Source of the DNA: an uncultured Spirochaetota bacterium
GTDB taxonomy: Bacteria > Spirochaetota > Spirochaetia > SZUA-6 > Fen-1364
Assembly: GCA_963734545.1 (NCBI GenBank)
Contig: CAVTHO010000008.1
Coordinates: 160,001-224,000, forward strand
Direction of reading: 5' to 3'
Length of the DNA stretch: 64,000 bases
Shown here: piece after piece, positions 36,669 through 53,685 of the stretch
Layout: each line of letters starts with the position of its first letter
Position numbering within the stretch: position 1 is the stretch's first letter
Made by a program: the position numbers and the translations under genes
Notes under the pieces: generated by a model
Seen by the model: only the letters and a program-made list of their open reading frames with translations
Databases searched by the model: none
Told to the model about the DNA's origin: nothing

Positions 36669-36673
36669 TACCG

Positions 36674-38962
36674 ATGACACCAGCACAACCGATTCCGCGA
36701 GGACATGCTCGACCTGGAGGACCCAGCCGCCGCCGGGGACGTCGTCTACATCGCCGCCCCGGCCACTTCTGCGCGGGCGGAAGGCGATGTCGCGGTGCTC
36801 ACTCTGCCCCTGATCGCCCGAAAGCCTTCTTCGTTCGAAGCCGACCCGGCCGTGGCCCCCATGGTCGCGGATCTTCGCCTGCAGTCATTCGGCGGATGCA
36901 TGGTGAGGGCGTGCGTGGAGTTTCAGCATTCCGGGGACGGCTGCGCCGCTGGAGGACCTGGATTCCAGCCCGATGATCGAGCGTGACGACACCCTTCAGA
37001 CCGAGCCGCTCGTCGTCCTGCGGGGAGTCGAGGCCGGGGAATATGTCGTCAAGGACGCGTCCGGCAGGGTGGTGCTGCGGACGCTTCCACCCCGCCTCCC
37101 GTCGCACCCCTGGAGCCGGCAGCTGCCGGATCCGGATCCCGTCTTCGACGCGGTCGTCTGCCCAGACGGCGCGGCAGAAGTTCCGTTCATGGCCCACGAC
37201 ACGTTTTTCCCCGCACACCGCGAGTCCATTGGCCTCGGCTGCGTGTCTGCGCGGCGGCACGCACGCGTCTTTCTCTGTTCTCCCTGCACGCCCGCCCGGG
37301 AGAGCGCTTCCTGGGGACCGGCGAGCGATTCTCCCGCTTCGGCCTCGCCGGTTCGACGGTCGTGCTGGAAAACACCGACGCCCTGGGGGTGTCCTCACGG
37401 CGGGCGTACAAGAACGTTCCGTTCTACGTGTCCAGCGCCGGCTACGGTCTGTTCGTCCACACCTCGTACCGAACGCGGCTGTCATTTGCCGACATCTCCT
37501 CCCGGGCCGTCCAGGGCGCCGTGGAGTCGTCTACCCTGGACCTGTTCTTCATCGGCGGAGGCTCGGTGCCGTCGATCGTGCGAAACTACCGGCGCCTGAC
37601 CGGCGTTCCGCGCCCGCCCCCGCTGTGGAGCTACGGCACGTGGATGGCGCGCATGACGTACTTCTCGGCGAAGGAAGCGCTCGAGGTGGCGGAGGGAATG
37701 CGCACGGGCGGCTTCCCGTGCGACGTGATCCATCTCGACACCGGGTGGTTCAGGACCGACTGGAGGTGCGAGTGGGAGTTCAGCCCGGAGCGGTTTCCGG
37801 ACCCCGAGGGGTTCTTCCGTGAAATGAAGAGTCTCGGGTTTCGGGTCAGTCTCTGGCAGTTGCCGCTGGTGACGGAAGGAACCAGCCTGTACGCCCTGGC
37901 TCGCGAGAACAGGTACATCGCGCCGGGAACCATGCCTCCGCTCGAATCGAAGTTCGACGACGCCCGAGGCTGCACCATCGACTTCACCAACCCTCGAGGC
38001 GGTGGAGTGGTACAAGGGCCTGCTGCGGAGGCTGTTGAGGATGGGAGCCGCGGCGATCAAGACGGACTTCGGAGAGATCGATCGACATGCAGGCCTCCTA
38101 CCACGGCATGAGCGCCGCGCGGCTTCGCAACATCTACTGCCTGCTCTATCACCGGGCCGCGTTCGAGGTGACGCGGGAGGTCTACCCGGACGGCATCATC
38201 TGGGCCCGGTCGGGATGGGCGGGAAGCCAGCGCTACCCGGTCCACTGGGGCGGGGACGCGGCCTGCACGTGGGACGGGCTGGCCGCTACGATCCGCGGGG
38301 GACTTCAGATCGGGCTGTCCGGTTTCGCGTTCTGGAGCCACGACGTTCCGGGATTCCACTCCCTTCCCAGCTTCATGAACGACCGTCCCTCCGACGAGTT
38401 GTTCGTCCGCTGGACCCAGGTCGGCGTGTTCACCTCCCACCTCCGCTTCCACGGGTCTTCCGCCCGCGAGCCCTGGGAGTACCCTTCCGTGGCCGGGTCG
38501 GTGCGGGAATGGCTCAAGCTGCGCTACGCGCTGATTCCCTACTTCCTGCGGGAAGCCGAACGGGCGATTTCCAGCGGTCTGCCGATCTTTCGCTCGCTGG
38601 TCTTTCATCATGAAGAGGATCCGGTCGCCTGGACGATCGAGGACGAGTTCTATTGCGGCGGGACGTTCCTGGTTGCTCCGATCCTCAGTGCCACGGGGGC
38701 AAGAAGCGTGTACCTGCCCGCCGGCGAATGGATCGACTTCTGGACCGGGGAGCGGATCCGGGGTCCGGTCGCCCTGGGCCGCGTGGAGCAGCCCCTCTCA
38801 CGCGTGCCGCTCTATGTCCGCAGCGACGCCGTCATCCCGTTCTATCCCGAGCCGGTTGCCTGCACGGATGAAATGGACCTCTCGCGGAACGCCGAGCTTG
38901 TCTTCGATGACAGTTACCGCGGCTTCCGCTCGTCACCCCTTGGGAGGGGCATCGAGCTGTGA
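36674..38962 (+). CDS. GH31 glycoside hydrolase (YicI alpha-xylosidase-like), frameshifted
   Basis: YKNVPFY, PPLWSYG.W, IHLDTGW, IDFTNP, IKTDFGE (nucleophile), HWGGD (acid/base), WSHDVPGF, YLPAGEW. Confidence 0.88.
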
Positions 38963-39973
38963 ACCGGCTCCACCCGGGGAGGCCTGCGTGGGCCGGAGTG
39001 TGTTCTCCAGGCGCTGTCCCTGCGCGCCGATCAGAGACATGGCGATGGGCTCATCCACGACCAGCATGGTCACGAACCCGCCGCGCAGGGCCGCGAGGAC
39101 TGCCGCCGTCTTCTCCCCGCCGGCGGCCGCTCCCAGCCGCACGGGGATCCGTCCAAGCGTGGCGCGATCAATGCCGACCAGACGGTCGTTGACATCGCAC
39201 GGCAGGACGGCCCCGTCCGCTCCGATGTGAAGACCGCAGACGGTTCCGACGGCTCCCGCGGAGAGGAGCGCCTCCGAGTCCTCCGGGCGGAGGAAGCCCG
39301 CCCGCACGAGCGAGCTGACGGCGGGCAGGTTCGACCCGATTCCGAACAGGGCCAGGTGCACGGTCGCCGCGTCGGCAAGCACGTGCGCCACGCCCGGCTC
39401 CCTCACGAGCATCTCCTTGAGCGCGACATCGCGCACCACGAGCGGCGCCTGCACGATGCGGTAGCCCCCGGCGAGCTTCTCCGCGAGCTTCTGGGCGAGC
39501 CCGAACCCGTCGATGGCCGGGTCCCCCGAGCCAAGACCGCCATGCAGCTGCAGGATTTCCACGTCGCGGAGCGCCTGGGGCTCCACGTGCCGCACCAGCT
39601 CGTACAGGGTGGTCCCCCAGCTTATGCCGATGCGGACCCCGTCATGCAGGAGGGGGCGAAGGCGTCGCGCGGCGGCCATCCCCACGTGGGACTTCGCCTG
39701 TGCCGGGTCCGCGCTGGCGGGGACCACGACCGCGTCCGCGAGCCCGAAGCGCTCGCGAAGGGCGGCGGCGAGCCGCGAGGCGTGCGAGGTGTCGTCATTG
39801 ACGCGGATCTCCACGATGCCCTGCTCCCGGCAGAGCTTCAGCATGGCGGAGACCGACGAGCGCGCGACGTTCAGCTTCTCGGCGATCTCCTGTTGAGACA
39901 GGTCCTGCTCGTAGTACATGCGCGCAACGGCGATCAGCGTCTCGCGCCGCGTCGATACCCTTTCCCGTTCCAT
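38933..39973 (-). CDS. SorC/DeoR (LsrR-like) sugar-phosphate-binding transcriptional regulator
   Basis: VARMYYEQDLSQQEIA, GISWGTTL, GAVGTVCG, AALRGGFVTMLVVDE. Confidence 0.93.
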   Translation of the reverse strand: MERERVSTRRETLIAVARMYYEQDLSQQEIAEKLNVARSSVSAMLKLCREQGIVEIRVNDDTSHASRLAAALRERFGLADAVVVPASADPAQAKSHVGMAAARRLRPLLHDGVRIGISWGTTLYELVRHVEPQALRDVEILQLHGGLGSGDPAIDGFGLAQKLAEKLAGGYRIVQAPLVVRDVALKEMLVREPGVAHVLADAATVHLALFGIGSNLPAVSSLVRAGFLRPEDSEALLSAGAVGTVCGLHIGADGAVLPCDVNDRLVGIDRATLGRIPVRLGAAAGGEKTAAVLAALRGGFVTMLVVDEPIAMSLIGAQGQRLENTLRPTQASPGGAGSQLDAPPKG

Positions 39974-39997
39974 GCGGCCTCCTCGCCGGACTCCGGC

Positions 39998-41184
39998 TCA
40001 GGCCAGAATCGCCCAGCAGTTCTCCAGGAGCGTCCGAACCCTGCCGAGGAACGCCGCGGCAGGCGCGCCGTCGATGTGCCTGTGGTCATGCGTGAGACAC
40101 AGGCTCATGAGGCGGCGGGGCTCGATGTCCCCCGAGGGGCCCCGGCGCAGCACCTCCTCGATGGCGCCCACACCGAGGATGGCGCTTTCCGGAACGTTGA
40201 TCAACGGCGTGAACTCCGTGATCCCGTACATGCCGAGGTTGGTGATGGTGAACGTCCCGCCGCTGCACTCCTCGGCCGCGAGGGTCCCCCGGCGCGCCTG
40301 GTCGGCCAGGTCCCGGAGGCGAGCCGACACCTCGCGGACGGTCAGCGTATCCGCGGCGCGGATCACCGGCACGATGAGGCCGCTTTCCAGGGCCACGGCG
40401 ACGCCGATGGCTACATCGGCCTGCAGGATGATCCGGTCGCCCTGGATGGTCGAGTTCAGAACAGGGTGCTCCCGGAGAGCAAGCGCTGATGCCCGCACGA
40501 TGAAATCAGTGAAGGAGACACGGGGGCGGTTGCCGGCGTTTATCCTCTCGCGGAGGTCCACAAGCTCGGTGACATCCGCGCGAGTGACCAATGTGACGGC
40601 GGGCACCGTCTGGTGGCTTCGCAGCATCTTGTCCGCGATCAGCTTCCGTATCCCCGTCATGGGCGTTCCGGTTCCGGGGAGAACCTCCGGCCGGGCCTGG
40701 GCCGTCCAGGCCGCCACGTCGCGCGCATGCACGGCGCCGCCCGGCCCCGTTCCCTTCAACGCGGAGAGGGAGACGCCAGCTTCCGCAGCGAGGCGACGCG
40801 CTGCGGGCGTGGCCGGCGCCCTGCCCGGCGCAACCGTGGGTGCCGGTGCAGCCTGCTGTGCGGGAGCAGCGACCGGCGCGCACCGGGGCGCCGGCGTGGG
40901 GCTGCGCGGGCGTGGCAGACCGGGGCCGCGGCCTCAACGGTCTCCCCGGGCGCGCCGATCCACGCGATGGTGTCCGTGACCTTCACGACGGCGCCGTCGC
41001 CGTGCACGATGGCCAGGAGCGTGCCCTCGTCCTCCGCCTCCAGGTCCATGGTGACCTTGTCGGTTTCAATGACGGCGATGGGCTCGCCCCGGGTGACCGT
41101 GTCCCCCGGCTTCTTGAGCCACCGCACGATCGTGCCTTCCTCCATTGCCATGCCCGTCTTGGGCATGATCACGCTGCGTGCCAT
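39998..41184 (-). CDS. Dihydrolipoamide acyltransferase E2, frameshift near 40900
   Basis: Lipoyl domain IETDKVT, E3-binding ATPAARRLA, TFTITNLG, catalytic THDHRHIDG. Confidence 0.93.
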
Positions 41185-41194
41185 GGCCGGGGCC

Positions 41195-42172
41195 CTACCT
41201 CATCAACGCGCGCGCCGCGGCGGCGATTGTCTCGTGCGTCGGGACCACTGCAGCTTCCAGGGTCTTGTTGTACGGGATGGGAACGTCCCGCCCGCCCAGA
41301 CGGCGGACCGGCGCATCGAGGTGGAAGAAGGCCTCGCTGTCGCAGATAGCCGCGGCGATCTCTCCGCCGAAGCCGGCGAACTGGCACGCCTCGTGAACGA
41401 TGAGCACGCGGCCCGTCTTCCTGGCGGAGGCGATGATGGCCGCCGTGTCCAGCGGCCGCAGCGAGCGCAGGTCGATGACCTCCGCGTCCACTCCCTCGCC
41501 GGCCAGGGTGCCGGCCGCCTCGAGGCAGCGCTGAACCATGCGGCCATAGGTGATGACGGTGAGGTCCTTTCCCGGGCGCTTCACGTCCGCCACGCCCAGC
41601 GGCACGAGGTGCTCCCCGTCGGGAACTTCGCCCTTCGTGCGGTAGAGGAGCTTCTGCTCCAGGAAGACCACCGGGTTGTCATCCCGTATGGACGACTTGA
41701 GAAGCCCCTTGGCATCCGCCGGCGTGGAGGGCGCCACCACCTTGAGGCCGGGGACGTTCAGAATCCAGGACTCGACGCTCTGCGAGTGCTGCGCCGCCGC
41801 ACCGGTGCCGGAGCCTTCGGGCGCGCGCAGCACCAGGGGCACCGATGCCTGTCCGCCGAACTGGTAGCGGGCCTTGGCCGCCTGGTTGACGAGCTGGTCC
41901 ATGGCGATAGTGATGAAGTCGAGAACATGATCTCCACGATGGGCCGCATGCCCGTCATGGCAGCCCCCACCGCGGCGCCCGTGATGGCGGCCTCGGAGAT
42001 CGGCGTGTCGCGCACGCGCTCGGGACCGAACTCCTCGATCATCCCGCGCGTCACGCCGAAGGCGCCCGCCGTAGGGTCCGATGTCCTCGCCCAGGAGGAA
42101 GACGTGCTCGTCGCGACGCATCTCCTCCGACATCGCGTCTTTTATCGCCTGGGCGTAGGTGATTTCAGGCAT
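41195..42172 (-). CDS. TPP-dependent dehydrogenase E1 beta subunit (acetoin dehydrogenase AcoB-like), frameshifted
   Basis: [40 protein letters not shown]. Confidence 0.92.
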
Positions 42173-43135
42173 AGACGTCTTCCTCCACCGTGTCCACCGA
42201 CGGTTCAGGGCTGGCCTCGGCGAAGGCGACCGCCTCTTCCACCGTCCGCGCTGCCGCCGCGTCCATGGCCGCGATCTGCTCCGCGCTGAGCCCCATTCTC
42301 CCGAAGGACACGGGCCATCCGCGGGATGGGGTCCTTCTTCTTCCAGGACTCGACCTCTTCTTTCGCGCGGTACAGGCCCGCATCGCTCTTGGAGTGGCCC
42401 ATGATGCGGTAGGTGTTCAGGACGAGGAGCAGGGGACCGTTCCGGCGCACCGCGGCCCGCGCTTCCCGGGTCGCCGTCGTAAACCGCCACCGCGTCGTTT
42501 CCGTCCACGGAGCGGCCCGGCATGCCATAGGAGGCGGCCCGCATCGAAATGTCCTCTATGTTCATGCTCCTGCTGACATGCATCGACATCCCGTACTGGT
42601 TGTTGATGCAGACGAAGAGCACCGGAAGCTTCCATATCGAGGCGAGGTTGAGCGACTCGTGGAACGTTCCCTCGTTGGCCGCGCCGTCCCCGAAGAAGCA
42701 GACGACGATCCGATCGATCTTCTGCATCACGGTGCTGAGGGCCGCTCCCACCGCAATCGGGATCCCGCCGCCCACGATGCCGTTGGCCCCGAGGTTTCCG
42801 GCCGTGATCTCGGCGATGTGCATGCACCCGCCTTTGCCCTTGCACACGCCGGTGGCCTTGCCGAGGAACTCGGCCATCATCGTTTTCACGTTCATGCCCT
42901 TGGCGATGCTCTGCCCGTGCCCGCGGTGCGTTGCATAGATGAGATCCTGCGGCTCGATTGCCGCGCAGACACCGGCCGCGGTGGCCTCCTCGCCTACGCA
43001 GAAATGGGCGGTGCCGTGCACCTTTCCGAGGCTGAACAACTTCATGGCTGTTTCCTCGAATACCCTGGTGGTGGCCATGTTGGCGTACATGAGCTTGAGC
43101 TTGTCGAGCGGAACCTTTGCCCGTTGTATTGACAT
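42165..43135 (-). CDS. TPP-dependent dehydrogenase E1 alpha subunit (acetoin dehydrogenase AcoA-like), frameshifted
   Basis: THRGHG, GKGGCMH, LGANGIVGGG, TPP motif FFGDGAANEG...NN, TYRIMGHS. Confidence 0.93.
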
Positions 43136-43262
43136 ATGATACTTTTTTACGATTTTTTGTCATTTGTCAACAACAGGTCGATCGTGTGGAACAGCTTCTG
43201 CCGCTCTTTCAGCACTTGGCACCACCCCTAATCTCATGATCAGTATGAAAATAAGAATTAAC

Positions 43263-43337
43263 TTGACAAGTAGTCCAGAATATGGGAGAATCCGCCATAG
43301 TGGTTTGTTATTTAGAACAAAACTATTTTTTGTTGCA
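43263..43337 (+). promoter_or_regulatory. Promoter/operator block, copy 1
   Basis: TTGACA-17 nt-GAGAAT with extended TG, then palindrome TTTGTT-ATTTAG-AACAAA (43304-43321). Confidence 0.8.
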
Positions 43338-43398
43338 TAACCATTTTGTTGAAAATCGGCAGTTTGAGCCGATTCAAATTTAATTGAGGAGGAAGAAG

Positions 43399-44427
43399 AT
43401 GAAGAAGCTAATGCTGGCTGTGTTAGCGGTTGCTCTGGTGTTACCGCTAGGTTACGCCGCGCCAAAAAAGGTAGGGCATGTCGTCTATACCATGGAACAT
43501 CAGTTCCACCAGTCAATTGCTCGGGAACTTCAAAGCTATGGACCGAAAATGTACGGGGTCAAGGTAATCATTCTTGACGGCGGGGGCAAAGGAGAAAAAA
43601 TGCTTGCCGCCGTTGAAAATCTCATTGCGCAAAAGGTTGACGCTATTTCGATTCACAGCCCCGAAACGGCTTTGACTGCAAAGGCTATCGAACTTGCGCA
43701 TGCCAAAAAGATCCCTATTGTAACCACTTTGATTTACCCTGACTCAAAGAATGCACCTCATGTTCAGCCGATGGAAACGCCGGCATCCTATGCCGAAGGC
43801 AAGATAGCTGCTCAGCAGTGGCTAAAAGCTTTCCCGGATAAGCCCTGCAAAGTCGCTATTCTTAATTTCGGTGCATGGGAACAGGGAGAGGTTTTGAGAT
43901 TCGGGCCTTTCTTTGAAGGCGTCAAGGCAGTCGATCCGAATGCGGAACTTGTTACTGTTCTTAACGGTCAGGGTTCTACCGAAGTATCAATGAAAGTGAC
44001 CCTCGATATTCTCCAGGCTCATCCGGAAGTAAATATCTTCTTCGGCGGAAATGATGAAATGGCTCTTGGAGCTCTTGCGGCCTGCGAACAGAAGGGCAGA
44101 GGAAAAATGGACAATGGAACACCTCTGACTGAAATCATAGCAGGTGTTGACGGAAACTCCTCCGCGCTGATCAAGATATATGATCCGGACTGTTCATTCA
44201 AGATTTCTCAGGGTGCCGTACGCGATGTCGCTCGTGCTGAAATGGATTGTATGATGGGAATGATTGAAGGCAAAATCGATATGTACAAATTCCAGATTAT
44301 TCAGGCCTTCGTCAAAGAAATTGACTACTGGCAGACTTCTATCGAAGATGCCCAGGTATTCCTGATGGATAATTATGGCTATAAAGGGAAACTTGCAGCC
44401 GATGTAGCCAGGGGCAAAAAGAAATAA
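43399..44427 (+). CDS. Monosaccharide ABC substrate-binding protein (RbsB-like), AT-rich
   Basis: Signal peptide MKKLMLAVLAV, ENLIAQKVDAI, ILQAHPEVNIFFGGNDEMALGA, IAGVDG. Confidence 0.9.
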   Translation: MKKLMLAVLAVALVLPLGYAAPKKVGHVVYTMEHQFHQSIARELQSYGPKMYGVKVIILDGGGKGEKMLAAVENLIAQKVDAISIHSPETALTAKAIELAHAKKIPIVTTLIYPDSKNAPHVQPMETPASYAEGKIAAQQWLKAFPDKPCKVAILNFGAWEQGEVLRFGPFFEGVKAVDPNAELVTVLNGQGSTEVSMKVTLDILQAHPEVNIFFGGNDEMALGALAACEQKGRGKMDNGTPLTEIIAGVDGNSSALIKIYDPDCSFKISQGAVRDVARAEMDCMMGMIEGKIDMYKFQIIQAFVKEIDYWQTSIEDAQVFLMDNYGYKGKLAADVARGKKK

Positions 44428-44463
44428 CCCATAGGGCAAGAAAGAACTAGTCTAGGGAAAGGA

Positions 44464-44507
44464 AAGAGAAAGGATAAATGAAATACTTTATCCTTTCTCT
44501 TGTTTTG
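44464..44507 (+). terminator. Rho-independent terminator
   Basis: 15-bp perfect stem aagagaaaggataaa/tttatcctttctctt followed by gttttg. Confidence 0.75.
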
Positions 44508-44508
44508 T

Positions 44509-44690
44509 TGTAGTGCCCCCCGAAATCAAGCCACCGGGGATAGTACTTGAGTACAGTGCTCCCCTGACCGTGCGGCCTGCCACGACTACCGCCTGACGCA
44601 GGAGTTCATCACTCCGTACACGCCCGAGCAGAATGGCATCTGAATACAAGGCTCACCTATCGGAGTCTGTGGCTTGAAACATGGGAGGCT
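44509..44690 (+). mobile_element. Internally deleted IS3-like remnant
   Basis: Terminal TGTAGTGCCCCCCGAAATCAAGCCACCG, transposase core fragment ACHDYRLTQEFITPYTPEQNGI*, and a partial right end tggcttgaaacatggg. Confidence 0.7.
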
Positions 44691-44719
44691 CGGAACTTTA
44701 CACCAACTATGGAAATCAT

Positions 44720-44795
44720 TTGACAAATAGTCCTAAATATGGGATAATCTGTCTCAACAGTTTGTTATTTAGAACAAAACTTATATTTGTTGCAA
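44720..44795 (+). promoter_or_regulatory. Promoter/operator block, copy 2
   Basis: TTGACA-17 nt-GATAAT and the identical palindrome TTTGTTATTTAGAACAAA (44761-44778). Confidence 0.8.
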
Positions 44796-44813
44796 GATTC
44801 GGAGGAGCGAGGC

Positions 44814-45995
44814 ATGAAGGCATTCGATTTCAGCGTACCTACTAGGGTCTTCTTCGGAAATGGCGAGCTCAGGCGGCTCCAGGAGATTGCACCGACCACC
44901 GGCAAGAGAGCGATGCTACTTGCTGCCAAGCACACCATGAAGCAGACCGGTATCCTGGACAGGGCAGTAGAACTGCTCAAGAAGGGCGGCGTTGACGTCG
45001 TCGTCTCCGACAACGTTGATCCCAACCCCAAGGACGTGGACATCGACCGCCAAACCATGGTGTTCCTCACGAGCAAGTGCGACTTCGCAATAGGGCTCGG
45101 CGGGGGAAGCTCCATGGACTCCGCCAAGGCCGTGGCGTTCCTGGCTGCCCAGGGAGGCGGAACCATCCTGGACTACCTCGCCGGAGGACTCCACGCCACG
45201 TTGGAGGGAACGAAGCCGGCGTTCCCCATCATCTGCGTCACAACGACCGCGGGAACCGGCTCGGAGACGACCCCCTGGTGGGTGATCACGAACACGAAAT
45301 GGCACGAGAAACCGGGAACGGGCAACGACAGCACCATGGCGCGCTACGCCATCGTGGATCCCGAGCTCATGGTCTCCGTTCCCCAGGAGGTCACGCGCAG
45401 CACGGGCATCGACGTGCTCTTCCACGCCATTGAGGCGTTCATCGCCAATGTCGCCACGCCATTCACGGATCTCCTTGCCCGGGAAGCCATCACGCTCGTG
45501 GTGAAGAACCTCGGCAATGTGCTGGAAAACGGGCAGGACCTGGAGGCACGCGGTCGCATGGCTTGGGCCAACAGCATCGCCGGTATCGCCATCGGAGAAG
45601 GCAAGTCTTCCACAGTGGCAATCCACGCCCTGGGGCACAGCATCGGCGGTCAGACCGACGCCCCGCACGGTCTGACCATGGCCGCGGTGGGACCGGCCTA
45701 CATGGCAAAGACCTGGGACGCGGACATCGCCCGCTACGCCGAGGTCACCCGGCTGCTCGGGTATGCAAAGCCCGGGCTCTCGGACCAGGAGCTCGCCCGG
45801 AGGTCTCCAGAGGCGCTCGTCGCGGTACTGGAGAAGTTCGGCTGCCGCGTGCGTATGCGCGACCTGGGAGTCAAGGAGGAGATGCTCGGGGCCATGACCG
45901 ATTCCGCCTTCAAGACAATGAGCGGCTGCCTGAACTGCAGTCTGAAGCCGCTCAGCCGGGCGGACGTCGTGCAGATGTACAAGGATTCCCTGTAG
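44814..45995 (+). CDS. Iron-containing alcohol dehydrogenase
   Basis: GLGGGSSMDSAK, TTAGTGSE, DPEL, iron ligands D.LFHAIE, HALGH, PHG. Confidence 0.93.
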   Translation: MKAFDFSVPTRVFFGNGELRRLQEIAPTTGKRAMLLAAKHTMKQTGILDRAVELLKKGGVDVVVSDNVDPNPKDVDIDRQTMVFLTSKCDFAIGLGGGSSMDSAKAVAFLAAQGGGTILDYLAGGLHATLEGTKPAFPIICVTTTAGTGSETTPWWVITNTKWHEKPGTGNDSTMARYAIVDPELMVSVPQEVTRSTGIDVLFHAIEAFIANVATPFTDLLAREAITLVVKNLGNVLENGQDLEARGRMAWANSIAGIAIGEGKSSTVAIHALGHSIGGQTDAPHGLTMAAVGPAYMAKTWDADIARYAEVTRLLGYAKPGLSDQELARRSPEALVAVLEKFGCRVRMRDLGVKEEMLGAMTDSAFKTMSGCLNCSLKPLSRADVVQMYKDSL

Positions 45996-46008
45996 GGGAG
46001 GAGGCGAC

Positions 46009-47550
46009 GTGGAGACCTGCCTGGCGGGCATCGACATCGGGACCTCGGGTGCAAAGGGCATGGTGTTCGACCTGCAGGGGAACGCGCTCGGGACCGGCTA
46101 CCGCGAATACCCCTGCACCTACCCCCGGCCGGGCTGGGTCGAGCAGGACGCGGATCTCGTGGTGGAATCTACCATGCAGGCCATGTCGGAAGCCGTGCGG
46201 GCCAGCAACGTCCCCCCGGAGGCCATCGTGTCCCTGTCACTGTCCGCGCAGCGCTGCTGCGGGATCTTCCTGGACGCGAACGACCACCAGGTGCGCCCCA
46301 TGATTTCCTGGCAGGACAACCGTACCACCGCGGAAGTGAAGGAAATCGCCGCCCGGATCGATGAGGCGGAGCTCTACCGGCTCACGGGATATCCCAACAG
46401 CACGACGTGGCTCCTGTCCAAGATGATGTGGGTCCGCAGAAACGAGCCGGAAGTCTGGAACAGGACGCGCCGGGTCGTGCAGATGCACGACTATTTCGTG
46501 CGGGCGCTCGGCGCGGACGACTACGTGGTGGACTGGAACGACGCGGGCTATTTCGGCTTTTTTGACTCCGCGGCGGGGTGCTGGAACGCACGCTTGCTGC
46601 ACCTATTCGGCGTCGACGCCTCGCTGCTGCCGGTTCCGCGGCCGTCGGGAACGCCTGTGGCCCGGATCTCGTCGGCGGCTGCCTCGCGCATCGGCCTGCG
46701 GGCCGGAACACAGGTGAGCGTTGGCGCCGGGGACCAGAGCGCGGGCGCGGTCGGCGCCGGAATCGTTCGCGGGGGGCTGATTTCGGTTTCCATGGGGACG
46801 GCGGGGGCGGTGGCGGCGTTCCTGGACGCCCACATCCGCGACCCGGAGGGACGGATGATCGTCACGGCCCATCCGATCAAAGGGCATTGGCTCCTCGAGG
46901 GATACCAGGCGGCGGCGGCCAGCGTCTACCGCTGGTTCAAGGAGCGGTTCGGCGCGGAGGAAGCCCGCGATGCCGAGGCCGGTGGCCGCAGCTATTACGA
47001 ATACATGAACGACCGTGTCTCCGCGGTACCCGCCGGATCCCGCGGACTGCTTGTACTCCCCTATTTCGCGGCTGCCGGAACGCCCCGGTACAATCCCCTG
47101 GCCCGGGGAACGATTGTGGGGCTCACGTTCTCGCACACCCGGTTCGACATCGCCCGGGCGTTCATGGAAGGCATCACGCTGGACATGAAGGACATGATAG
47201 GCGCCATGGCACGAGCTGGACTCCAGGTGACGGAAGCCCGCCTCCTGGGCGGTCCCACGAAGTCCCGCGTGTGGAACCAGATCCAGGCTGATGTGTACGG
47301 CGTGCCCGTGACAACGCTGAAGGTCACGGACGCCACCGTGCTGGGCGCCGCCATCCTGGGGGGCGTGGGCGCCGCGGTCTTCTCCTCCATCGAGGAAGGA
47401 GCGGACGCGATGGTCCGGCTCGACGAGCGCTTCGAGCCCATCCCGGAGAACGTGCAGACCTACGCGCGGCTCTATGACGCGTACTGCCGTTGCTACGAGG
47501 GCCTCGACCGAAGCGGCGTGTACGCCGCGCTGGCCGACTTGCAGAAGTAG
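46009..47550 (+). CDS. FGGY family carbohydrate kinase (xylulokinase-like)
   Basis: GIDIGTSGAK, PGWVEQD, ISWQDNRT, GAGDQ, SMGTAG, LGGPTKS..WNQIQADV. Confidence 0.93.
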   Translation: METCLAGIDIGTSGAKGMVFDLQGNALGTGYREYPCTYPRPGWVEQDADLVVESTMQAMSEAVRASNVPPEAIVSLSLSAQRCCGIFLDANDHQVRPMISWQDNRTTAEVKEIAARIDEAELYRLTGYPNSTTWLLSKMMWVRRNEPEVWNRTRRVVQMHDYFVRALGADDYVVDWNDAGYFGFFDSAAGCWNARLLHLFGVDASLLPVPRPSGTPVARISSAAASRIGLRAGTQVSVGAGDQSAGAVGAGIVRGGLISVSMGTAGAVAAFLDAHIRDPEGRMIVTAHPIKGHWLLEGYQAAAASVYRWFKERFGAEEARDAEAGGRSYYEYMNDRVSAVPAGSRGLLVLPYFAAAGTPRYNPLARGTIVGLTFSHTRFDIARAFMEGITLDMKDMIGAMARAGLQVTEARLLGGPTKSRVWNQIQADVYGVPVTTLKVTDATVLGAAILGGVGAAVFSSIEEGADAMVRLDERFEPIPENVQTYARLYDAYCRCYEGLDRSGVYAALADLQK

Positions 47551-47596
47551 ACAACCGGCCTGTCAGGCCGGAGAGAGAATGAACAGGAGGAGAGAG

Positions 47597-47659
47597 ATGG
47601 TGAAGAAGATCCTCATGGCAGCGCTGGTTCTCGGCGTCCTCGCCACCGGCATCGCGTAG
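47597..47659 (+). pseudogene. Truncated gene, signal peptide only
   Basis: Strong SD AGGAGG, then MVKKILMAALVLGVLATGIA*, at the switch from GC-rich to AT-rich DNA. Confidence 0.6.
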
Positions 47660-47808
47660 AGGCGCCTCGCAAGTGTACACCTTTGCCGGTCAGGTGTCCG
47701 ACTGCTGCAAAGATCCTCAAAAGCAATGCTTTGGATATACTTCATTGCCCCTCGGCCCGATTCCTGCCCGCCGTTGGTCATTTCTATTGTATAACAGGAC
47801 GGTCTGTG

Positions 47809-48780
47809 ATGCTTAAGATTTTAGGACGATTCGATCAGCAGAAAATAGTACTTGTCAGTGTGATACTTGTGATAACCCTGGCAATGTCAATCTTGTCAGC
47901 CAAGTTTTTCAACATTGACAATTTCGTCAACATACTGCTTCAGATCGCTCCGCTGATCATTGTCGCTTCGGCGGCCAATCTTCTCATGATCACAGGGAAT
48001 TTTGATCTGTCGGTAGGAAGTGTATTCGCTTTCTGCGCGATTATGCACGCTTACATGACAAAGAACGTGCTGCCGATTGGATGGTCAATCCTGTTCTCCT
48101 GTGTCCTGGCTATTCTATGGGGAGCTTCAAACGGAATCATGGTTGGGATCCTGAACGTAAATCCCTTTATCGCCACAATGGGTTCCATGTACGCGGCGAG
48201 AGGTTTTGCCTATCTCATTGCCAGATGGGACGGCGGAGCGAACATATCGGCGGGGCTTCCGCCGGATTTCAGCGATTTCGGACGAACAAACGTTTTCGGC
48301 ATTGTTCCAATCATTATCATTTTCATGATAGTCGTAGTTGCAGTTTTCATATTCATTGAGAAGAAGACCGTCCTTGGAAGATACAGTTATTCTATCGGGT
48401 GCAATAAAAGCGCTTCAAAGCTTTCCGGGATAAATGTTCCACGTGTTTTGATCATCATATACATGATTGTCGGCTTGCTCGCCGGATTGTGCGGTGTCAT
48501 CCAGGTATCCCGCGTAGGATCGGCATATCCGAATATTGGCACCGGGATGGAATTTGATGTGCTTCTGGCAATATTCCTTGGCGGCACCAGTATGCTCGGT
48601 GGTGAAGGTTCTACATTTGGAATGATACTTGGAGCATTTATCGTTGGCCTGGTCGCGAACGGACTGAATCTGCTCAACGTACCGTATTTCTATCAGGAAG
48701 TAACAAAGGGAGCGCTTCTGATAATCGCCGTTCTTGCTGACCAGATGTTGAGAAGGCGGAAGCAACCGGGGGGTGCATGA
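47809..48780 (+). CDS. Monosaccharide ABC permease (RbsC-like), AT-rich
   Basis: GNFDLSVGS, PFIATMG, ASKLSGINV, LGGTSMLGGEGS. Confidence 0.92.
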   Translation: MLKILGRFDQQKIVLVSVILVITLAMSILSAKFFNIDNFVNILLQIAPLIIVASAANLLMITGNFDLSVGSVFAFCAIMHAYMTKNVLPIGWSILFSCVLAILWGASNGIMVGILNVNPFIATMGSMYAARGFAYLIARWDGGANISAGLPPDFSDFGRTNVFGIVPIIIIFMIVVVAVFIFIEKKTVLGRYSYSIGCNKSASKLSGINVPRVLIIIYMIVGLLAGLCGVIQVSRVGSAYPNIGTGMEFDVLLAIFLGGTSMLGGEGSTFGMILGAFIVGLVANGLNLLNVPYFYQEVTKGALLIIAVLADQMLRRRKQPGGA

Positions 48781-50308
48781 TGGAGAACGATGCCATATTG
48801 AGCATCAGGGGAATAGATAAGGAGTATCCAGGGGTTCATGCCCTGGATAATATTGATTTTGATATTTACAGGAACAGCATACATTGCATCATAGGCGAAA
48901 ACGGTTCGGGAAAATCGACATTCATAAAGATACTGACGGGAGTCGTTGCGAAAACCAGAGGCACCATATTGTTCAACGGCAAGCCGTTTGATCCAAAAAA
49001 TGTCAAAGACGCGAAAAGCCATGGCATTGTCGCCTTATACCAGGAACTGAATGTGGTGAATGATCTGACTGTCGAAGAGAATCTCACTCTTGGAAGGGAG
49101 AAGCATAGATTTGGCATGATCCAGAAGGATGACAGCCTTGATAGAATAGTTTCGATTCTCAAGGAACTCGATAAGACGATCAAGCTCAACATGACGGTAG
49201 GCGAGCTGAGCACCGCGCAAAAACAGATCATTGAAATTGTCAAGGCGGTTTCGATTGACTGCAAGGTACTGGTAATGGATGAGCCCACCGCTTCATTAAG
49301 CGAGGAAGAAACAAGCAAGATTTTTGAAGTGGTCAAGAAGCTGAAGGCCAGCGGGATGACCGTTATCTATATATCTCACAAGCTAAGCGAAGTATTTGAA
49401 ATAGGCGATTTTGTTACCGTGTTCAGAGACGGAAAAATCATCGCAACCAAAACTATTCAAGAAATCAACAAGGAATGCAAAGGCGATATTCCGATGCTTG
49501 TCTGGAACTGGTCAAAATGATGCTTGGAAGGGTCGTCATAGAATCCTACATACCAAGCAAGACCGACTATTCAGAAAAGATCCTGGAGGTCAAGAACCTG
49601 AATACTGATTTGCTAAAGAATGTAAATTTCGATCTTTTCAAGGGAGAAATTCTGGGATTCTACGGATTGGTGGGAGCTGGGAAAACCGAAGTGGCGCGTG
49701 TTCTTTTTGGAATCGATGTCTACTCCGGGGAAATACGTGTGAAAGGAAAGATAGCAAGACTCAATAGAGTAGGGGATGCTTTGAAAAATGGCATTGCCAT
49801 GATCCCCGAGGAAAGAAGAGAAGATGGGGTTTTTGGGAAACTTTCAATTAAAAACAACATTCCAATGATGAAAATCAAGTCGATTCTTAAGAATGGTATC
49901 ATCAGCAGGCAAAAAGAAAACAGAATTGCGGATGACTACATCAAGATGCTTTCAATCGCAGCCAGAGACAGGGAGCAGAAAGTCGCGTTCTTGAGCGGAG
50001 GAAATCAGCAAAAGGTTGTCATATCCAAGTGTCTGAACAGGGAAAGCGATGTGCTTCTGATGGATGAACCGACCAGAGGTATAGATGTCGGAGCGAAACT
50101 TGAAATTCATAACATAGCAAGAAATCTTGCGAATCAGGGCAAGGGCGTTATCGTATTTTCATCGGAACTGCCGGAAGTTCTTCATTTATGCGACAGAATC
50201 GTATTTATGAATAGCGGGAGAGTTTCAACCATTATCAAGAACGGGAATAATATGAATAACGACGATATTATGAAAATTATCGCAGATGGAGAGCAGAAAT
50301 ATGAATAG
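48777..50308 (+). CDS. Monosaccharide ABC ATPase (RbsA-like, two NBDs), frameshift near 49490
   Basis: GENGSGKST, VMDEPT, LSGGNQQK, MDEPTRGIDVGAK, SSELPE. Confidence 0.93.
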
Positions 50309-51289
50309 GAAAATAGATTTTGCAAAAATATCTAGAAATCCAATATCGATTATTGTTACATTTTTCATAGTAATCAACATATTTTTTATCATGACGGCAT
50401 ATGATAGTTTTTTTCAAATCTGATAACTATTTCAATGTGCTAAAGCAAACAGCGATGATTATTATCGTCGCTTCAGCAGCGACAATTCTTATGATGACGG
50501 GGAATTTTGACCTGTCTACAGGAAGCGTAGCGGCTTTTGCAGGTTGTGTCTACGCCTTGCTGATCAAAAACGGGATGCAACTGATTCCGGCAGGAATCTA
50601 TGCGGTTGTTGTTGGAATCGCCATCGGTATCATAAATGGAGCAATGGTTACGAAACTTAATTTCCCCCCTTTTATCGCTACGCTGTGTATGATGTACATT
50701 TCCAGGGGAATTGCTCTGATATTGGCGAATGGAGCAACTATACGCGACAATATGCCGCCGGAAATAGGCAATTTGGCAAGCAGAGACGTTTTTGGACTAC
50801 CGATATTTGTTATCTTCATAATCATTGCGCTGATCATCTTTGTTTTTATTGAAAAAAGGACCCTTCTTGGAAAATATGCGCTCGCTATCGGCGGAAATAA
50901 AAACGCGGCCTTCTTTTCCGGAATTAATACGGGAGCGATTATTCTTTGCCATCTATATCATTATTGGAGGGCTTGCCGGGTTTGCGGGAGTCATGTACGC
51001 GTCAAGACTAAGCGCCGGTGATCCGAGAGGCATGGTTGGTTTTGAATTTGATGTAATTCTCGCAATCATTCTTGGGGGCACAGGCCTTTCAGGCGGTAAA
51101 GGTTCCGTTATCGGTACTTGTTTTGGCGCCTTGGTTGTCGCAACCTTGGGAAATGGTCTGGATATGTTGAACATATTGACATTCTGGCAGAGCATTCTGA
51201 AAGGCATCATTTTCGTTCTGGCCATAGTTTTCAATGAGAAGATTCTAAAGAATATCGGCAAGAAAACCTTAGTTACAGCGAAAGCGTAG
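50301..51289 (+). CDS. Second monosaccharide ABC permease, frameshifted
   Basis: GNFDLSTGS, PPFIATL, AIGGN..AA..SGIN, LGGTGLSGGKGS. Confidence 0.9.
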
Positions 51290-51574
51290 AGGAAGGATTA
51301 GTCGGCCAGGTCAGGCAAAGAGAATTTGAATGTGGGGAATCAAGGTTGGGCAGGTGAGGCCTATTTGGAAGAGGATAGAAAAAATGGATTCTGGTTGCGA
51401 CAACAGGGCTTGTCCGCTTCAGCAGGCTGCGGTAATTGCTGAGCTCGGAGAAGTTGCTCGAGGTCAGGCATGCCTGCCACCCTCCGATGCCGGGGACGTC
51501 CGAGTCGTGAGGCAGGCGCTCCCCGGCTGTTCGATAAGGCGGCCCGCGGGAATGCCGTGCTCATTTGAGTGAGT

Positions 51575-51603
51575 CGGTGGCTTGATTTCAGGGGTGCACT
51601 ACA
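51575..51603 (-). mobile_element. IS3-like terminal inverted repeat matching 44509-44536
   Basis: Reverse complement reads TGTAGTGCACCCCTGAAATCAAGCCACCG versus TGTAGTGC-CCCCCGAAATCAAGCCACCG on the left. Confidence 0.75.
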
Positions 51604-51625
51604 TGGTACAGTAAGGGACTATCAT

Positions 51626-53664: not shown

Positions 53665-53685
53665 CGGGGCGCCCCGTCGTCCAGG

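What the first reader, a model, noticed from the sequence alone, without database searches (positions are those of the whole stretch)
38933..51289. Candidate new pathway: acetoin-dehydrogenase-like TPP complex wired to a sugar kinase, Fe-ADH and sugar ABC importer
Seen: E1alpha-E1beta-E2-SorC/DeoR regulator run one way. Divergently lie a binding protein, an Fe-ADH, an FGGY kinase and permease-ATPase-permease, and both plus-strand promoters carry the same operator. The locus has no aldolase, transketolase, isomerase or E3. Known: AcoABC cleaves the alpha-hydroxyketone acetoin to acetyl-CoA plus an aldehyde. SorC/LsrR regulators sense sugar phosphates. The Lsr AI-2 system has the same regulator/FGGY/two-permease layout but cleaves with LsrF. 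Inference: an imported polyol or deoxy-sugar is oxidised and phosphorylated, then cleaved oxidatively by the TPP complex to an acyl-CoA plus an aldose phosphate. For example, a 1-deoxy-ketose phosphate would give acetyl-CoA plus glyceraldehyde-3-P. E3 would be borrowed from elsewhere, and the substrate is unknown.
Basis: partly seen in the sequence, partly recalled or inferred. Interest (0 to 1): 0.75.

Follow-up and report, generated by a model that had tools for sequence, protein, structure and literature searches.

The report
Sugar-uptake genes beside acetoin-type dehydrogenase complex
A peat-soil spirochaete keeps a sugar or polyol import-and-phosphorylation operon next to a thiamine/lipoate enzyme complex of the acetoin-dehydrogenase type; the pairing recurs in relatives and hints at an uncharacterised way of splitting a sugar derivative, but the substrate is unknown.

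Summary
SorC, E2, E1beta and E1alpha lie on the minus strand. A binding protein, Fe-ADH, FGGY kinase and permease-ATPase-permease lie on the plus strand, and an 83-nt promoter/operator is duplicated. No aldolase, transketolase, isomerase or E3 lies nearby.

Caveats. Seven single-base frameshifts break E1alpha, E1beta, E2, the ATPase and permease 2. They are probably assembly indels. The transporter genes are low-GC replacements of an ancestral high-GC cassette.

The linkage is conserved in all five related genomes where contigs allow a check, in two gene orders. Related E1/E2+SorC modules sit beside non-orthologous sugar modules (PTS, other dehydrogenases, FGGY) in other phyla.

E1alpha forms a spirochaete clade nested among AcoA-like E1s and fails the PDH equivalog cut-off.

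Against one single pathway: the two modules carry different operators, each has its own regulator (SorC, IclR), and each occurs alone in some genomes. The Fe-ADH resembles small-alcohol enzymes.

The proposed cleavage of a 1-deoxy-ketose phosphate is plausible but untested (about 0.35). Rivals are a small-carbonyl-oxidising complex (0.3) and two unrelated neighbours (0.25). My searches found only an unassigned acetoin-dehydrogenase-like enzyme in a Caldicellulosiruptor rhamnose locus. Interest is moderate to high.

The parts
38933..39973 (-). SorC/DeoR-family regulator (HTH plus sugar-binding domain), last gene of the E1 operon
   Evidence: Pfam Sugar-bind PF04198, 194 bits. NCBIfam DeoR 205 bits against cut-off 420 and LsrR 137 against 486, both below cut-off. 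Orthologues of 57-93% identity in 9 of 92 genomes.
39998..41184 (-). E2 dihydrolipoyl acyltransferase: lipoyl domain 40924-41184, linker/PSBD, catalytic domain 39998-40759. One frameshift between 40861 and 40873.
   Evidence: Pfam Biotin_lipoyl and 2-oxoacid_dh. Lipoyl-lysine context ETDKVTMD and catalytic DHRHIDG are visible. Frames mapped.
41195..42178 (-). E1beta (Transket_pyr plus Transketolase_C) with two compensating frameshifts near 42066-42071 and 41920
   Evidence: Contigs of run X5 carry an extra C behind 41919.
42168..43135 (-). E1alpha (E1_dh, TPP motif GDG...NN) with frameshifts near 42474-42479 and 42292-42299
   Evidence: The intact orthologue (G005) scores TIGR03182 at 353.7 bits, below the cut-off of 393.85.
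43157..43170 (.). E1alpha-proximal operator-like motif TTGTCATTTGTCAA. This is the candidate SorC site.
   Evidence: Exact form occurs once in the genome. Related forms lie upstream of E1alpha in G014, G010, G005 and L033, where it is the palindrome TTGTCATATGACAA.
43255..43337 (+). Promoter/operator copy 1, upstream of the binding-protein gene
   Evidence: 83-nt direct repeat, 80% identical to copy 2. The palindrome TTTGTT-N6-AACAAA occurs only twice in the genome.
43384..44427 (+). CUT2-type periplasmic binding protein (likely start ATG 43399), low-GC xenologue
   Evidence: Pfam Peripla_BP_4. GC 46-50%. 92% identical DNA in G001. Homologues of 53-65% identity in spirochaetes and marine Alphaproteobacteria, none characterised.
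44464..44501 (+). Perfect 15-nt hairpin followed by a T-rich stretch: likely terminator of the binding-protein gene
   Evidence: Inverted repeat I1; sequence.
44712..44794 (+). Promoter/operator copy 2, upstream of the Fe-ADH gene
   Evidence: The promoter core TTGACA-17-nnATAATCT is conserved upstream of ADH in G014, G010, G001, G036 and G024.
44787..45995 (+). Group III iron alcohol dehydrogenase (likely start ATG 44814, 393 aa as in relatives)
   Evidence: Pfam Fe-ADH plus ADH_Fe_C. No NCBIfam equivalog cut-off reached. Nearest solved structures are methanol and 1,3-propanediol dehydrogenases.
46009..47550 (+). FGGY carbohydrate kinase, XylB/LsrK-like
   Evidence: Pfam FGGY_N and FGGY_C. 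TIGR01312 XylB 346 bits against cut-off 380; LsrK 228 against 528. Best solved structure is LsrK 5ya0, 197 bits.
47597..47659 (+). Relic of the ancestral high-GC binding-protein gene: 20 codons of signal peptide, then a stop. It marks the junction with the foreign low-GC cassette.
   Evidence: MVKKILMAALVLGVLATGIA* aligns by eye with the N-termini of the G014 and G024 binding proteins, which follow FGGY there.
47683..48780 (+). ABC permease 1 (BPD_transp_2), low GC
   Evidence: Intact 347-aa orthologue in G001.
48777..50308 (+). Double-cassette ABC ATPase, split by a 1-nt deletion at 49488
   Evidence: Two ABC_tran halves. Intact 506-aa gene in G001. An extra T behind 49488 in contigs of 4 of 4 runs.
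50305..51289 (+). ABC permease 2 (approximate start), split by a 1-nt insertion at 50948
   Evidence: ORFs 50401-51021 and 50840-51289. Intact 331-aa gene in G001. The base is absent from contigs of 3 of 4 runs.
51569..52471 (+). IclR-family regulator that travels with the ADH-FGGY-ABC module. It is the candidate binder of the TTTGTT-N6-AACAAA operator.
   Evidence: Pfam HTH_IclR plus IclR_C. Orthologues of 76-86% identity beside the module in G014, G024 and G001. The assignment of the operator to IclR is inference.
52573..53361 (+). SMP-30/gluconolactonase-like protein, a recurrent neighbour
   Evidence: Pfam SGL, 209 bits. Homologues lie near the island in G014 and G001 and beside the subclade-B E1 operon of G024.

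Best explanation
The locus is a two-module catabolic island of a wetland spirochaete.

Module 1 is the promoter/operator TTTGTT-N6-AACAAA, the binding protein, Fe-ADH, FGGY kinase and CUT2 ABC importer, then IclR and an SMP-30 lactonase. It imports a small sugar-like compound and phosphorylates it.

Module 2 is E1alpha-E1beta-E2-SorC with its own operator TTGTCATnTGwCAA. It is an AcoABC-type thiamine-diphosphate/lipoyl complex.

My most likely reading is as follows. The phosphorylated product, or a close derivative, is an alpha-hydroxy-ketone with a methyl-ketone end (a 1-deoxy-ketose phosphate type). It induces module 2 through SorC. E1 then cleaves it next to the carbonyl. The acyl (probably acetyl) group passes through lipoyl-E2 to CoA, and an aldose phosphate enters central metabolism. 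E3 is supplied from C8:82 kb. The Fe-ADH supplies the redox step, either making the ketone from an alcohol or balancing NADH.

Shown: gene identities, intact catalytic motifs, the duplicated operator, conserved adjacency, and recurrence of E1/E2+SorC beside sugar modules.

Inferred: functional coupling, the effector, the substrate class, the acyl product and the role of the ADH.

Broader claim, at about 0.65: the complex works on some sugar-derived carbonyl compound in the same pathway.
For: Adjacency is kept through rearrangement. The two operons are divergent in G000, G014 and G010 and collinear (E1a-E1b-E2-SorC-ADH-...-FGGY-ABC) in G001 and G036, which is 5 of 5 assessable genomes in two families.

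The modules co-occur. Seven of the 9 genomes with the SorC orthologue also hold ADH-FGGY.

SorC accompanies E1 in 16 of 80 loci fetched with E1alpha, including a Tissierellia/Eubacteriaceae sister clade.

Non-orthologous sugar modules lie beside related E1 modules:
- Tissierella: Ula/Gat-type PTS, class II aldolase/epimerase, Fe-ADH, SorC, E1E2E3.
- Anaerosalibacter: glucitol PTS, DRL_cat oxidoreductases, SorC, E1E2E3, LplA.
- Low-GC spirochaete L034: E1E2E3, SorC, Zn-ADH, FGGY, DeoC/LacD aldolase.
- G000 contig C5: ABC, two FGGY kinases, SorC, E1ab, epimerase-like genes.
- L070: FGGY-E1a-E1b-transaldolase-split transketolase-RpiB-acetate kinase.

DRL_cat is the family of DXR-II, which acts on 1-deoxy-xylulose-5-P (abstract of PMC3847144).

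The kinase is nearest to XylB and LsrK. From recall, both of these phosphorylate 1-deoxy-pentulose derivatives.

Catalytic motifs of E1alpha and E2 are intact.

The frameshifts are absent from related short-read contigs. Lipoate ligase genes are present.
Against: The two modules have different operators and separate regulators.

Module 1 occurs without an adjacent E1 operon in G024, where a Y2 transposase lies upstream. G021 likewise has only a subclade-B E1alpha.

A subclade-A E1 operon occurs without ADH/FGGY in L033.

Module 1 alone would be a complete ordinary polyol operon: dehydrogenase, pentulose kinase and transporter.

The Fe-ADH is nearest to enzymes of C1-C4 alcohols.

E1alpha is 52% identical to an E1alpha in a canonical AcoR/acoABCL context, so plain acetoin remains possible.

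No natural source of 1-deoxy-ketoses in peat is known to me.
Confidence: 0.35

Rival explanations
1. The complex handles a small, non-phosphorylated carbonyl by-product of sugar breakdown, such as acetoin, lactaldehyde, glycolaldehyde or acetaldehyde. It turns this into an acyl-CoA. The neighbouring Fe-ADH reduces part of the same aldehyde pool, giving a redox-balanced, ATP-yielding dismutation. The sugar kinase and transporter belong to the same regulon but do not make the E1 substrate directly.
For: The Fe-ADH resembles methanol, 1,3-propanediol and lactaldehyde enzymes.

Fe-ADH lies directly next to SorC/E1 both in the spirochaetes and in Tissierella.

Anaerolineae locus L053 combines a RhaA-like isomerase, FGGY, class II aldolase, aldehyde:ferredoxin oxidoreductase and E1abE2.

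Rodionov et al. 2021 (PMC8579813, passages read) proposed that an acetoin-dehydrogenase-like three-subunit enzyme (Athe_0702-4) in the C. bescii rhamnose locus deals with lactaldehyde, and listed it as unassigned.

E1alpha is close to AcoA-type E1s.
Against: The window locus and its orthologous loci hold no aldolase or other enzyme that would release such an aldehyde.

SorC-family regulators are known, from recall, for sugar or sugar-phosphate effectors.

The class II 'aldolases' in some contexts may be epimerases of the UlaF/SgbE type (my reading).
Confidence: 0.3
2. These are two unrelated neighbours. One is an ordinary IclR-controlled polyol/pentulose operon (binding protein, ADH, xylulokinase-like FGGY, ABC importer). 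The other is a SorC-controlled acetoin- or pyruvate-type dehydrogenase operon. They are adjacent through shared ancestry within one genus, not through shared function.
For: The operators and regulators differ.

Each module exists alone in some genomes.

The kinase narrowly misses the XylB cut-off, 346 against 380 bits.

Most adjacency evidence comes from one genus, so the cases are not independent.

G000 has about 8 E1ab clusters, so some will lie near sugar genes by chance in a genome with 18 FGGY hits.
Against: Adjacency survives a change of gene order and is seen in a second family (G036).

SorC, FGGY or PTS neighbours of related E1 modules recur in several phyla. SorC is in 16 of 80 loci and FGGY in 10 of 80.

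The whole set, including IclR and SMP-30, stays together in three arrangements.
Confidence: 0.25
3. The locus is decaying. The seven frameshifts are real, and the pathway is dead in this strain.
For: There are seven frameshifts in 12.4 kb. That is denser than in rpoB (none) and rpoC (one).
Against: Three of the seven sites were checked against short-read contigs of related populations. The shift at 49488 is absent in 4 of 4 runs, the one at 50948 in 3 of 4, and the one at 41919 in 1 run.

rpoC, the E3 gene (three pieces) and the neighbouring GH31 gene are also broken. This points to assembly indels in a 10-contig genome.

Orthologues in G001 and G005 are intact.
Confidence: 0.08

Closest known systems
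Acetoin dehydrogenase enzyme system AcoABC(L), as in Bacillus subtilis, Clostridium magnum and Pelobacter carbinolicus (names recalled)
   Same: Heteromeric E1alpha/E1beta plus a lipoyl E2. E1alpha is 52% identical to a Bacillaceae E1alpha in an AcoR-acoABCL-SDR context. Like that protein, it falls just under the PDH equivalog cut-off.
   Different: No E3 gene in the operon. A SorC regulator replaces the sigma-54 activator AcoR. The complex is embedded in a sugar uptake and kinase island. It forms its own spirochaete clade. Activity on acetoin is untested.
Athe_0702-0704 of Caldicellulosiruptor bescii, an acetoin-dehydrogenase-like three-subunit enzyme in the RhaR2 rhamnose locus (PMC8579813)
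   Same: An Aco-like complex inside a sugar-utilisation locus with an FGGY kinase and a CUT2 transporter. Its function is unassigned.
   Different: That locus has an isomerase and an aldolase and a DeoR regulator, and the proposed substrate is lactaldehyde. I did not compare the sequences. The supplementary tables of that paper were closed.
Lsr autoinducer-2 uptake and processing system (LsrACDB, LsrK, LsrR, LsrF, LsrG)
   Same: A SorC-family regulator, an FGGY kinase and a two-permease CUT2 importer. The kinase's best solved relative is LsrK.
   Different: All Lsr equivalog cut-offs are missed: LsrK 228 against 528, LsrR 137 against 486, LsrC/D 137/135 against 388/500, LsrA 186-195 against 586. 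The binding protein gives no LsrB hit, and there is no LsrF or LsrG.
Pentitol/polyol operons (dehydrogenase plus FGGY pentulokinase plus transporter plus repressor, such as dal/rbt of Klebsiella; recalled)
   Same: Module 1 has exactly this make-up, and the kinase is XylB-like.
   Different: The dehydrogenase is a group III Fe-ADH rather than an SDR or MDR enzyme. An E1/E2 complex and a lactonase are attached.
1-deoxy-D-xylulose-5-phosphate synthase (DXS) and transketolase/phosphoketolase
   Same: These are ThDP enzymes that make or break the C2-C3 bond of ketose phosphates. The proposed E1 step is formally the reverse of the DXS condensation, followed by oxidation.
   Different: The fold arrangement differs (E1ab against a single chain). 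The hits to dxs and transketolase models are only domain-level. There is no lipoyl acceptor in DXS, transketolase or phosphoketolase.

Membership tests
AcoABC(L) acetoin dehydrogenase system | E1alpha with ThDP motif, E1beta, and E2 with lipoyl, PSBD and catalytic DHRxxDG | tested here: met
   Pfam E1_dh, Transket_pyr, Transketolase_C, Biotin_lipoyl and 2-oxoacid_dh. Motifs GDGAANEG...NN, ETDKV and DHRHIDG are visible.
AcoABC(L) acetoin dehydrogenase system | E3 (acoL) in the operon and an AcoR-type sigma-54 activator | tested here: not met
   No E3 in the locus; the best E3 is at C8:82038-83413. The regulator is SorC-type. The Bacillaceae comparator L045 has both.
AcoABC(L) acetoin dehydrogenase system | E1alpha falls inside a clade of characterised AcoA proteins | tested here: inconclusive
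   The tree (quick method) puts it in a spirochaete clade (SH-aLRT 98). That clade groups, on open or weak branches, with the Anaerolineae, Tissierellia and Streptococcus clades, and the Bacillaceae aco-context row lies just outside. No experimentally characterised sequence could be included.
AcoABC(L) acetoin dehydrogenase system | Cleaves acetoin to acetyl-CoA plus acetaldehyde | not testable with these tools
   Needs an enzyme assay.
Pyruvate dehydrogenase E1 (TIGR03182 / PRK11892 equivalogs) | Score over the curated equivalog cut-off | tested here: not met
   Intact G005 E1alpha scores 353.7 against 393.85, and E1beta 409.2 against 454. Only the E1beta subfamily model PRK09212 is passed (406.5 against 321). 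The G001 E2 scores 277 against 445.
Lsr AI-2 system | LsrK, LsrR, LsrACD and LsrB equivalogs, and LsrF/LsrG present | tested here: not met
   All scores are below the cut-offs. There is no LsrB hit and no LsrF or LsrG gene.
Xylulokinase XylB (TIGR01312) | Score over the equivalog cut-off | tested here: not met
   346.4 against 380.25 bits. It is the best-scoring model but falls below the cut-off.
SorC/DeoR-type sugar(-phosphate) responsive repressors | N-terminal HTH plus Sugar-bind domain (PF04198) | tested here: met
   PF04198 at 194 bits over residues 62-315, with HTH hits at residues 3-59. The effector was not tested.
CUT2 monosaccharide ABC importers | Peripla_BP_4 binding protein, two BPD_transp_2 permeases, and a fused double ATPase | tested here: met
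   Intact versions in G001.

The most novel reading that the evidence does not exclude
A widespread, uncharacterised branch of AcoA-like E1/E2 complexes under SorC control acts directly on phosphorylated 1-deoxy-ketoses or related sugar ketols. It cleaves them oxidatively to acetyl-CoA plus an aldose phosphate. This would be a lipoate-dependent 'reverse DXS' route that replaces an aldolase or phosphoketolase in anaerobes. In this spirochaete it would be fed by an ABC importer, an Fe-ADH and an XylB/LsrK-like kinase. One possible substrate class is reduced phospho-AI-2 or 1-deoxy-pentuloses.
Probability: 0.3. Interest if true: 0.85.

Novelty: new variant of a known kind. Interest (0 to 1): 0.6.

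Why it matters
Lipoyl-dependent E1/E2 complexes are textbook enzymes of 2-oxo acids and acetoin. A branch that works inside sugar or polyol catabolism would add a new type of carbon-carbon cleavage to carbohydrate metabolism.

It would also explain an unassigned 'acetoin dehydrogenase-like' enzyme already noted in a Caldicellulosiruptor sugar locus.

The recurrence of SorC with E1/E2 beside PTS or FGGY modules in several phyla gives a concrete, assayable set of candidates. It would also help explain why this wetland spirochaete carries about eight E1ab clusters.

If the modules turn out to be independent, the locus is an ordinary polyol operon next to an acetoin/pyruvate-type dehydrogenase.

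Tried and rejected
- Earlier notes of this scan: two look-ups found nothing.
- Literature: five searches for a described pathway of this kind found none. The only relevant text was the unassigned C. bescii enzyme. Rodionova 2013 (PMC3870299) has no occurrence of 'acetoin', 'pyruvate dehydrogenase' or 'thiamine'. PMC3637100 uses 'acetoin dehydrogenase' for acetoin reductase candidates only.
- Binding-protein ligand: the solved structures are all distant, at most 59 bits. The 119 homologues carry only generic names.
- IS remnant: I read the peptide ...ITPYTPEQNGI* at 44551-44640 as the tail of a transposase, from recall. Pfam found nothing for the 30 residues and the genome holds no other copy. 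This is not confirmed.
- Lsr membership is rejected on the cut-offs.
- The 646-aa 'fused E1' ORF is rejected as a frameshift artefact.
- Not attempted: a structural search for a phosphate-binding pocket in E1. ThDP is not among the ligands offered, and I could not map active-site residues reliably.
- Runs found by shared words hold only 0.17-0.27 of the words, so they are related populations. I draw no conclusion on habitat or on uncovered parts.

Full report
**What is there**

The window is G000:C8:160001-224000 of a 5.14-Mb, 10-contig, 63% GC genome. Record titles of its closest relatives name it as a Spirochaetota MAG lineage from fen, peat and wetland samples.

- Minus strand: SorC/DeoR-type regulator (38933-39973), E2 (39998-41184), E1beta (41195-42178) and E1alpha (42168-43135).
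- Plus strand: a Peripla_BP_4 binding protein (43384/43399-44427), a group III Fe-ADH (44787/44814-45995), an FGGY kinase (46009-47550), a permease (47683-48780), a double ABC ATPase (48777-50308) and a second permease (to 51289).
- Downstream follow an IclR regulator (51569-52471) and an SMP-30/gluconolactonase-like gene (52573-53361).
- Upstream lie a GH31 glycosidase and a CUT1 permease.

No aldolase, transketolase, isomerase or E3 lies in the locus or its near flanks. The best lipoamide-dehydrogenase match in the genome is at C8:82038-83413, beside another E1/E2 cluster. Lipoate ligase-type genes exist.

**The shared operator**

An 83-nt direct repeat (43255-43337 and 44712-44794, 80% identity) precedes the binding-protein gene and the ADH gene. 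It holds a TTGACA-17-TATGGGAnAAT promoter and the palindrome TTTGTT-N6-AACAAA. That palindrome occurs exactly twice in the whole genome, both times here. This is far beyond chance.

**Frameshifts**

With intact orthologues as guides I mapped seven single-base frameshifts:
- two in E1alpha,
- two compensating ones in E1beta,
- one in E2,
- one in the ATPase (49488),
- one in permease 2 (50948).

The 646-aa 'E1' ORF is their by-product.

Contigs from four wetland or peat runs, at least 92% alike, were laid on the locus.
- They carry an extra T behind 49488 in 4 of 4 runs.
- They lack the base at 50948 in 3 of 4 runs.
- One run carries an extra C behind 41919.

These runs are related populations, not proven to be the source sample. 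Elsewhere in the genome rpoC is also frame-broken while rpoB is not. The E3 gene is in three pieces, and the neighbouring GH31 gene is fragmented. The orthologous genes of G001 and G005 are intact.

I conclude that assembly indels are the likely cause. I put real pseudogenisation at about 0.08.

**Mosaic origin**

The binding-protein gene and the three transporter genes have 36-50% GC, between genes of 62-79% GC. The same mosaic is present in an independent assembly, G001.

Downstream of FGGY a 20-codon relic (47597-47659) matches the signal peptide of the high-GC binding protein that follows FGGY in G014 and G024. So an ancestral order ADH-FGGY-SBP-permease-ATPase-permease was overwritten by a foreign low-GC cassette, and the new binding-protein gene landed upstream with a copy of the ADH promoter.

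In G001 and G016 the same binding-protein gene sits inside a remnant of the ADH gene, with a second ADH copy upstream. One run also shows this arrangement as a joint from 44507 to 45829. IS91/Y2-type transposase genes flank the island in G001 and G024.

**Is the linkage conserved?**

In the 92 genomes held for the order:
- FGGY orthologues of at least 70% identity occur in 8: G000, G001, G005, G024, G021, G014, G010 and G036 (11 of 92 pass E <= 1e-150).
- SorC orthologues of at least 57% identity occur in 9: G000, G016, G005, G013, G011, G014, G010, G036 and G001 (15 of 92 pass E <= 1e-70).
- Six genomes have both by these calls. G016 adds a seventh by DNA.

Where contigs allow a check, the operons are adjacent in 5 of 5 genomes. 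They are divergent in G000, G014 and G010. They are collinear as E1a-E1b-E2-SorC-ADH-...-FGGY-ABC in G001 and in G036, which belongs to another family. IclR and SMP-30 stay with the set in G000, G014 and G001, although on different sides.

Against obligate coupling:
- G024 and G021 have ADH-FGGY-SBP-ABC(-IclR), but their E1alpha genes fall in the paralogous subclade B. In G024 that E1 operon lies on another contig, and a Y2 transposase sits upstream of the ADH.
- A subclade-A E1 operon in another spirochaete (L033) is flanked by metG, a FemAB gene and an MFS transporter instead.
- Kin are not independent, and most cases are from one genus.

**Regulation**

Upstream of E1alpha a different motif is conserved. 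It reads TTGTCATTTGTCAA in the window (43157-43170) and TTGTCATATGACAA in L033, with related forms in G014, G010 and G005. The ADH promoters of six genomes share a TTGACA-17-nnATAATCT core but not this motif.

By inference, SorC controls the E1 operon and IclR controls the uptake operon. This means two regulators and two signals.

**What kind of E1?**

An intact orthologue scores 353.7 bits on the PDH E1alpha equivalog model, below the cut-off of 393.85. A Bacillaceae E1alpha scores 382.4 on the same model. That Bacillaceae operon has the canonical acetoin context: a sigma-54/PAS activator, E1a, E1b, E2, E3 and an SDR. The nearest solved structure is human PDH E1alpha.

A tree of 91 E1alpha rows was built (quick method).
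- Two of 93 rows were dropped.
- The window row was cut to its first 225 intact residues.
- Fused rows were cut to their first 345 residues.

The tree puts the window in a spirochaete clade of 10 rows (SH-aLRT 98). Subclade A is the locus type. Subclade B includes a second G000 copy on C5. This clade groups, on weak or open branches, with Anaerolineae, Tissierellia/Eubacteriaceae and Streptococcus/Porphyromonas clades, and the Bacillaceae row lies just outside.

**Contexts elsewhere**

Among 80 loci fetched with E1alpha, SorC lies within 10 kb in 16, an FGGY kinase in 10 and an Fe-ADH in 2. The full spirochaete set appears only in the G014 record.

Annotated examples:
- **Tissierella:** DRL_cat oxidoreductase, LevR-like activator, EIIA, Gat/Ula-type EIIC, class II aldolase/epimerase, Fe-ADH, SorC, E1a-E1b-E2-E3.
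- **Anaerosalibacter:** DRL_cat, HAD phosphatase, SorC, GutM, glucitol PTS, DRL_cat, SorC, E1a-E1b-E2-E3, LplA.
- **Low-GC spirochaete L034:** E1a-E1b-E2-E3-SorC, Zn-ADH, FGGY, DeoC/LacD aldolase.
- **G000 contig C5:** SDR, cupin, CUT2 ABC, FGGY, SorC, FGGY, E1b-E1a, class II aldolase/epimerase, xylose-isomerase-like TIM barrel.
- **Anaerolineae L053:** CUT2 ABC, MBL hydrolase, cupin, split transketolase, LacI, E1a-E1b-E2, RhaA-like isomerase, aldehyde:ferredoxin oxidoreductase, class II aldolase, FGGY.
- **L070:** permease, GntR, FGGY, E1a, E1b, transaldolase, split transketolase, RpiB, acetate kinase.
- **Planctomycete L074:** FGGY, Zn-ADH and PdxA-like genes near two E1ab pairs.

DRL_cat is the family of DXR-II, which acts on 1-deoxy-xylulose-5-P, and of two uncharacterised oxidoreductase groups (abstract of PMC3847144).

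The recurring theme is uptake with phosphorylation, plus an NAD-type dehydrogenase, plus SorC, plus an Aco-like complex, with non-orthologous parts in different phyla.

**Literature**

Five full-text searches found no described pathway of this kind. Rodionov et al. 2021 (passages read) note an acetoin-dehydrogenase-like three-subunit enzyme (Athe_0702-4) in the C. bescii rhamnose locus. They suggest it handles lactaldehyde and list it as functionally unassigned.

**Reading**

I hold it likely (about 0.65) that the complex belongs functionally to sugar-derived carbon flow.

The kinase product, or a derivative, is a phosphorylated methyl-ketol. E1 cleaves it, the acetyl group goes through lipoyl-E2 to CoA, and an aldose phosphate is released. 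This best explains the SorC link, the absence of any other cleaving enzyme, the DRL_cat neighbours and the L070 context, where pentose-phosphate enzymes and acetate kinase lie next to FGGY-E1ab.
- **Small-carbonyl rival (0.3).** This best explains the type of Fe-ADH, the aldehyde oxidoreductase in L053 and the C. bescii proposal. It lacks an aldehyde source in this locus.
- **Independent neighbours (0.25).** This is supported by the separate operators, the separate regulators and the separability of the modules.

The Lsr analogy is one of layout only, because every Lsr equivalog cut-off is missed.

**Verdict**

This is a new variant of a known kind of enzyme system and a good experimental lead.

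Noticed in passing
window 43100-44900 and 47600-51500; relic at 47597-47659: In-place replacement of an ancestral high-GC binding-protein/ABC cassette by low-GC xenologues (36-50% GC). It left a 20-codon relic of the old signal peptide and duplicated the ADH promoter. G001 and G016 carry the same binding-protein gene inserted in a remnant of the ADH gene.
   Followed up: yes
G000 genome: C9:92395-96472 (rpoC), C8:82038-83413 (E3), C8:78833-81974, window 36065-38962 (GH31): Frame breaks in essential and unrelated genes suggest that the 10-contig assembly carries many single-base indel errors. Gene calls in this genome should be read with that in mind.
   Followed up: partly
G000: C3:114.8-118.7k, C3:298-300.6k, C5:111-117k (+E2 at C5:96-97.2k), C8:78.8-83.4k, C8:198.9-203.1k, C8:407.6-410.8k, C8:728.1-731.8k, C8:875-876.6k: There are about eight separate E1alpha/E1beta clusters in one spirochaete genome, at least three of them with SorC and/or FGGY neighbours. 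This is an unusual expansion for a presumably fermentative organism.
   Followed up: partly
L041, L044, L047, L048, L051 (about 691-697 aa), L056 (652 aa, cut by the contig end): Anaerolineae and other Chloroflexota carry E1alpha and E1beta as one open reading frame in six independent assemblies. These appear to be natural E1alpha-E1beta fusions.
   Followed up: no
L037:1516-2805, L037:7452-8747, L043:2-1054: DRL_cat (DXR-II-like) oxidoreductases of unknown function sit next to PTS genes and SorC-E1E2E3 operons in Tissierellia. This may be a clue to the function of the uncharacterised DLO groups.
   Followed up: no
L053:130-18814: A long one-strand gene run in an Anaerolineae MAG joins a CUT2 importer, MBL hydrolase, cupin, split transketolase, LacI, E1abE2, RhaA-like isomerase, tungsten-type aldehyde:ferredoxin oxidoreductase, class II aldolase and FGGY kinase. 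It looks like a deoxy-hexose route with two aldehyde-handling systems.
   Followed up: no
L070:66-11056: FGGY-E1alpha-E1beta, with no E2 seen, is followed by transaldolase, split transketolase, RpiB and acetate kinase on one strand, in a 38% GC contig labelled Actinomycetes.
   Followed up: no
window 44551-44640: A short high-GC open frame ending ...ITPYTPEQNGI* lies between the binding-protein terminator and the ADH promoter. From recall it looked like the tail of an integrase-type transposase. Pfam and a genome-wide search gave no support.
   Followed up: yes
L020:18730-19782 (G001) and L022:10900-11778 (G024): IS91/Y2-type transposase genes border the island in two relatives, at the points where gene order differs from the window.
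   Followed up: partly
window 53606-60196, minus strand: A second CUT2-type sugar system lies just downstream: binding proteins, a permease, and a histidine kinase/response regulator pair. The region is a carbohydrate-utilisation neighbourhood.
   Followed up: no
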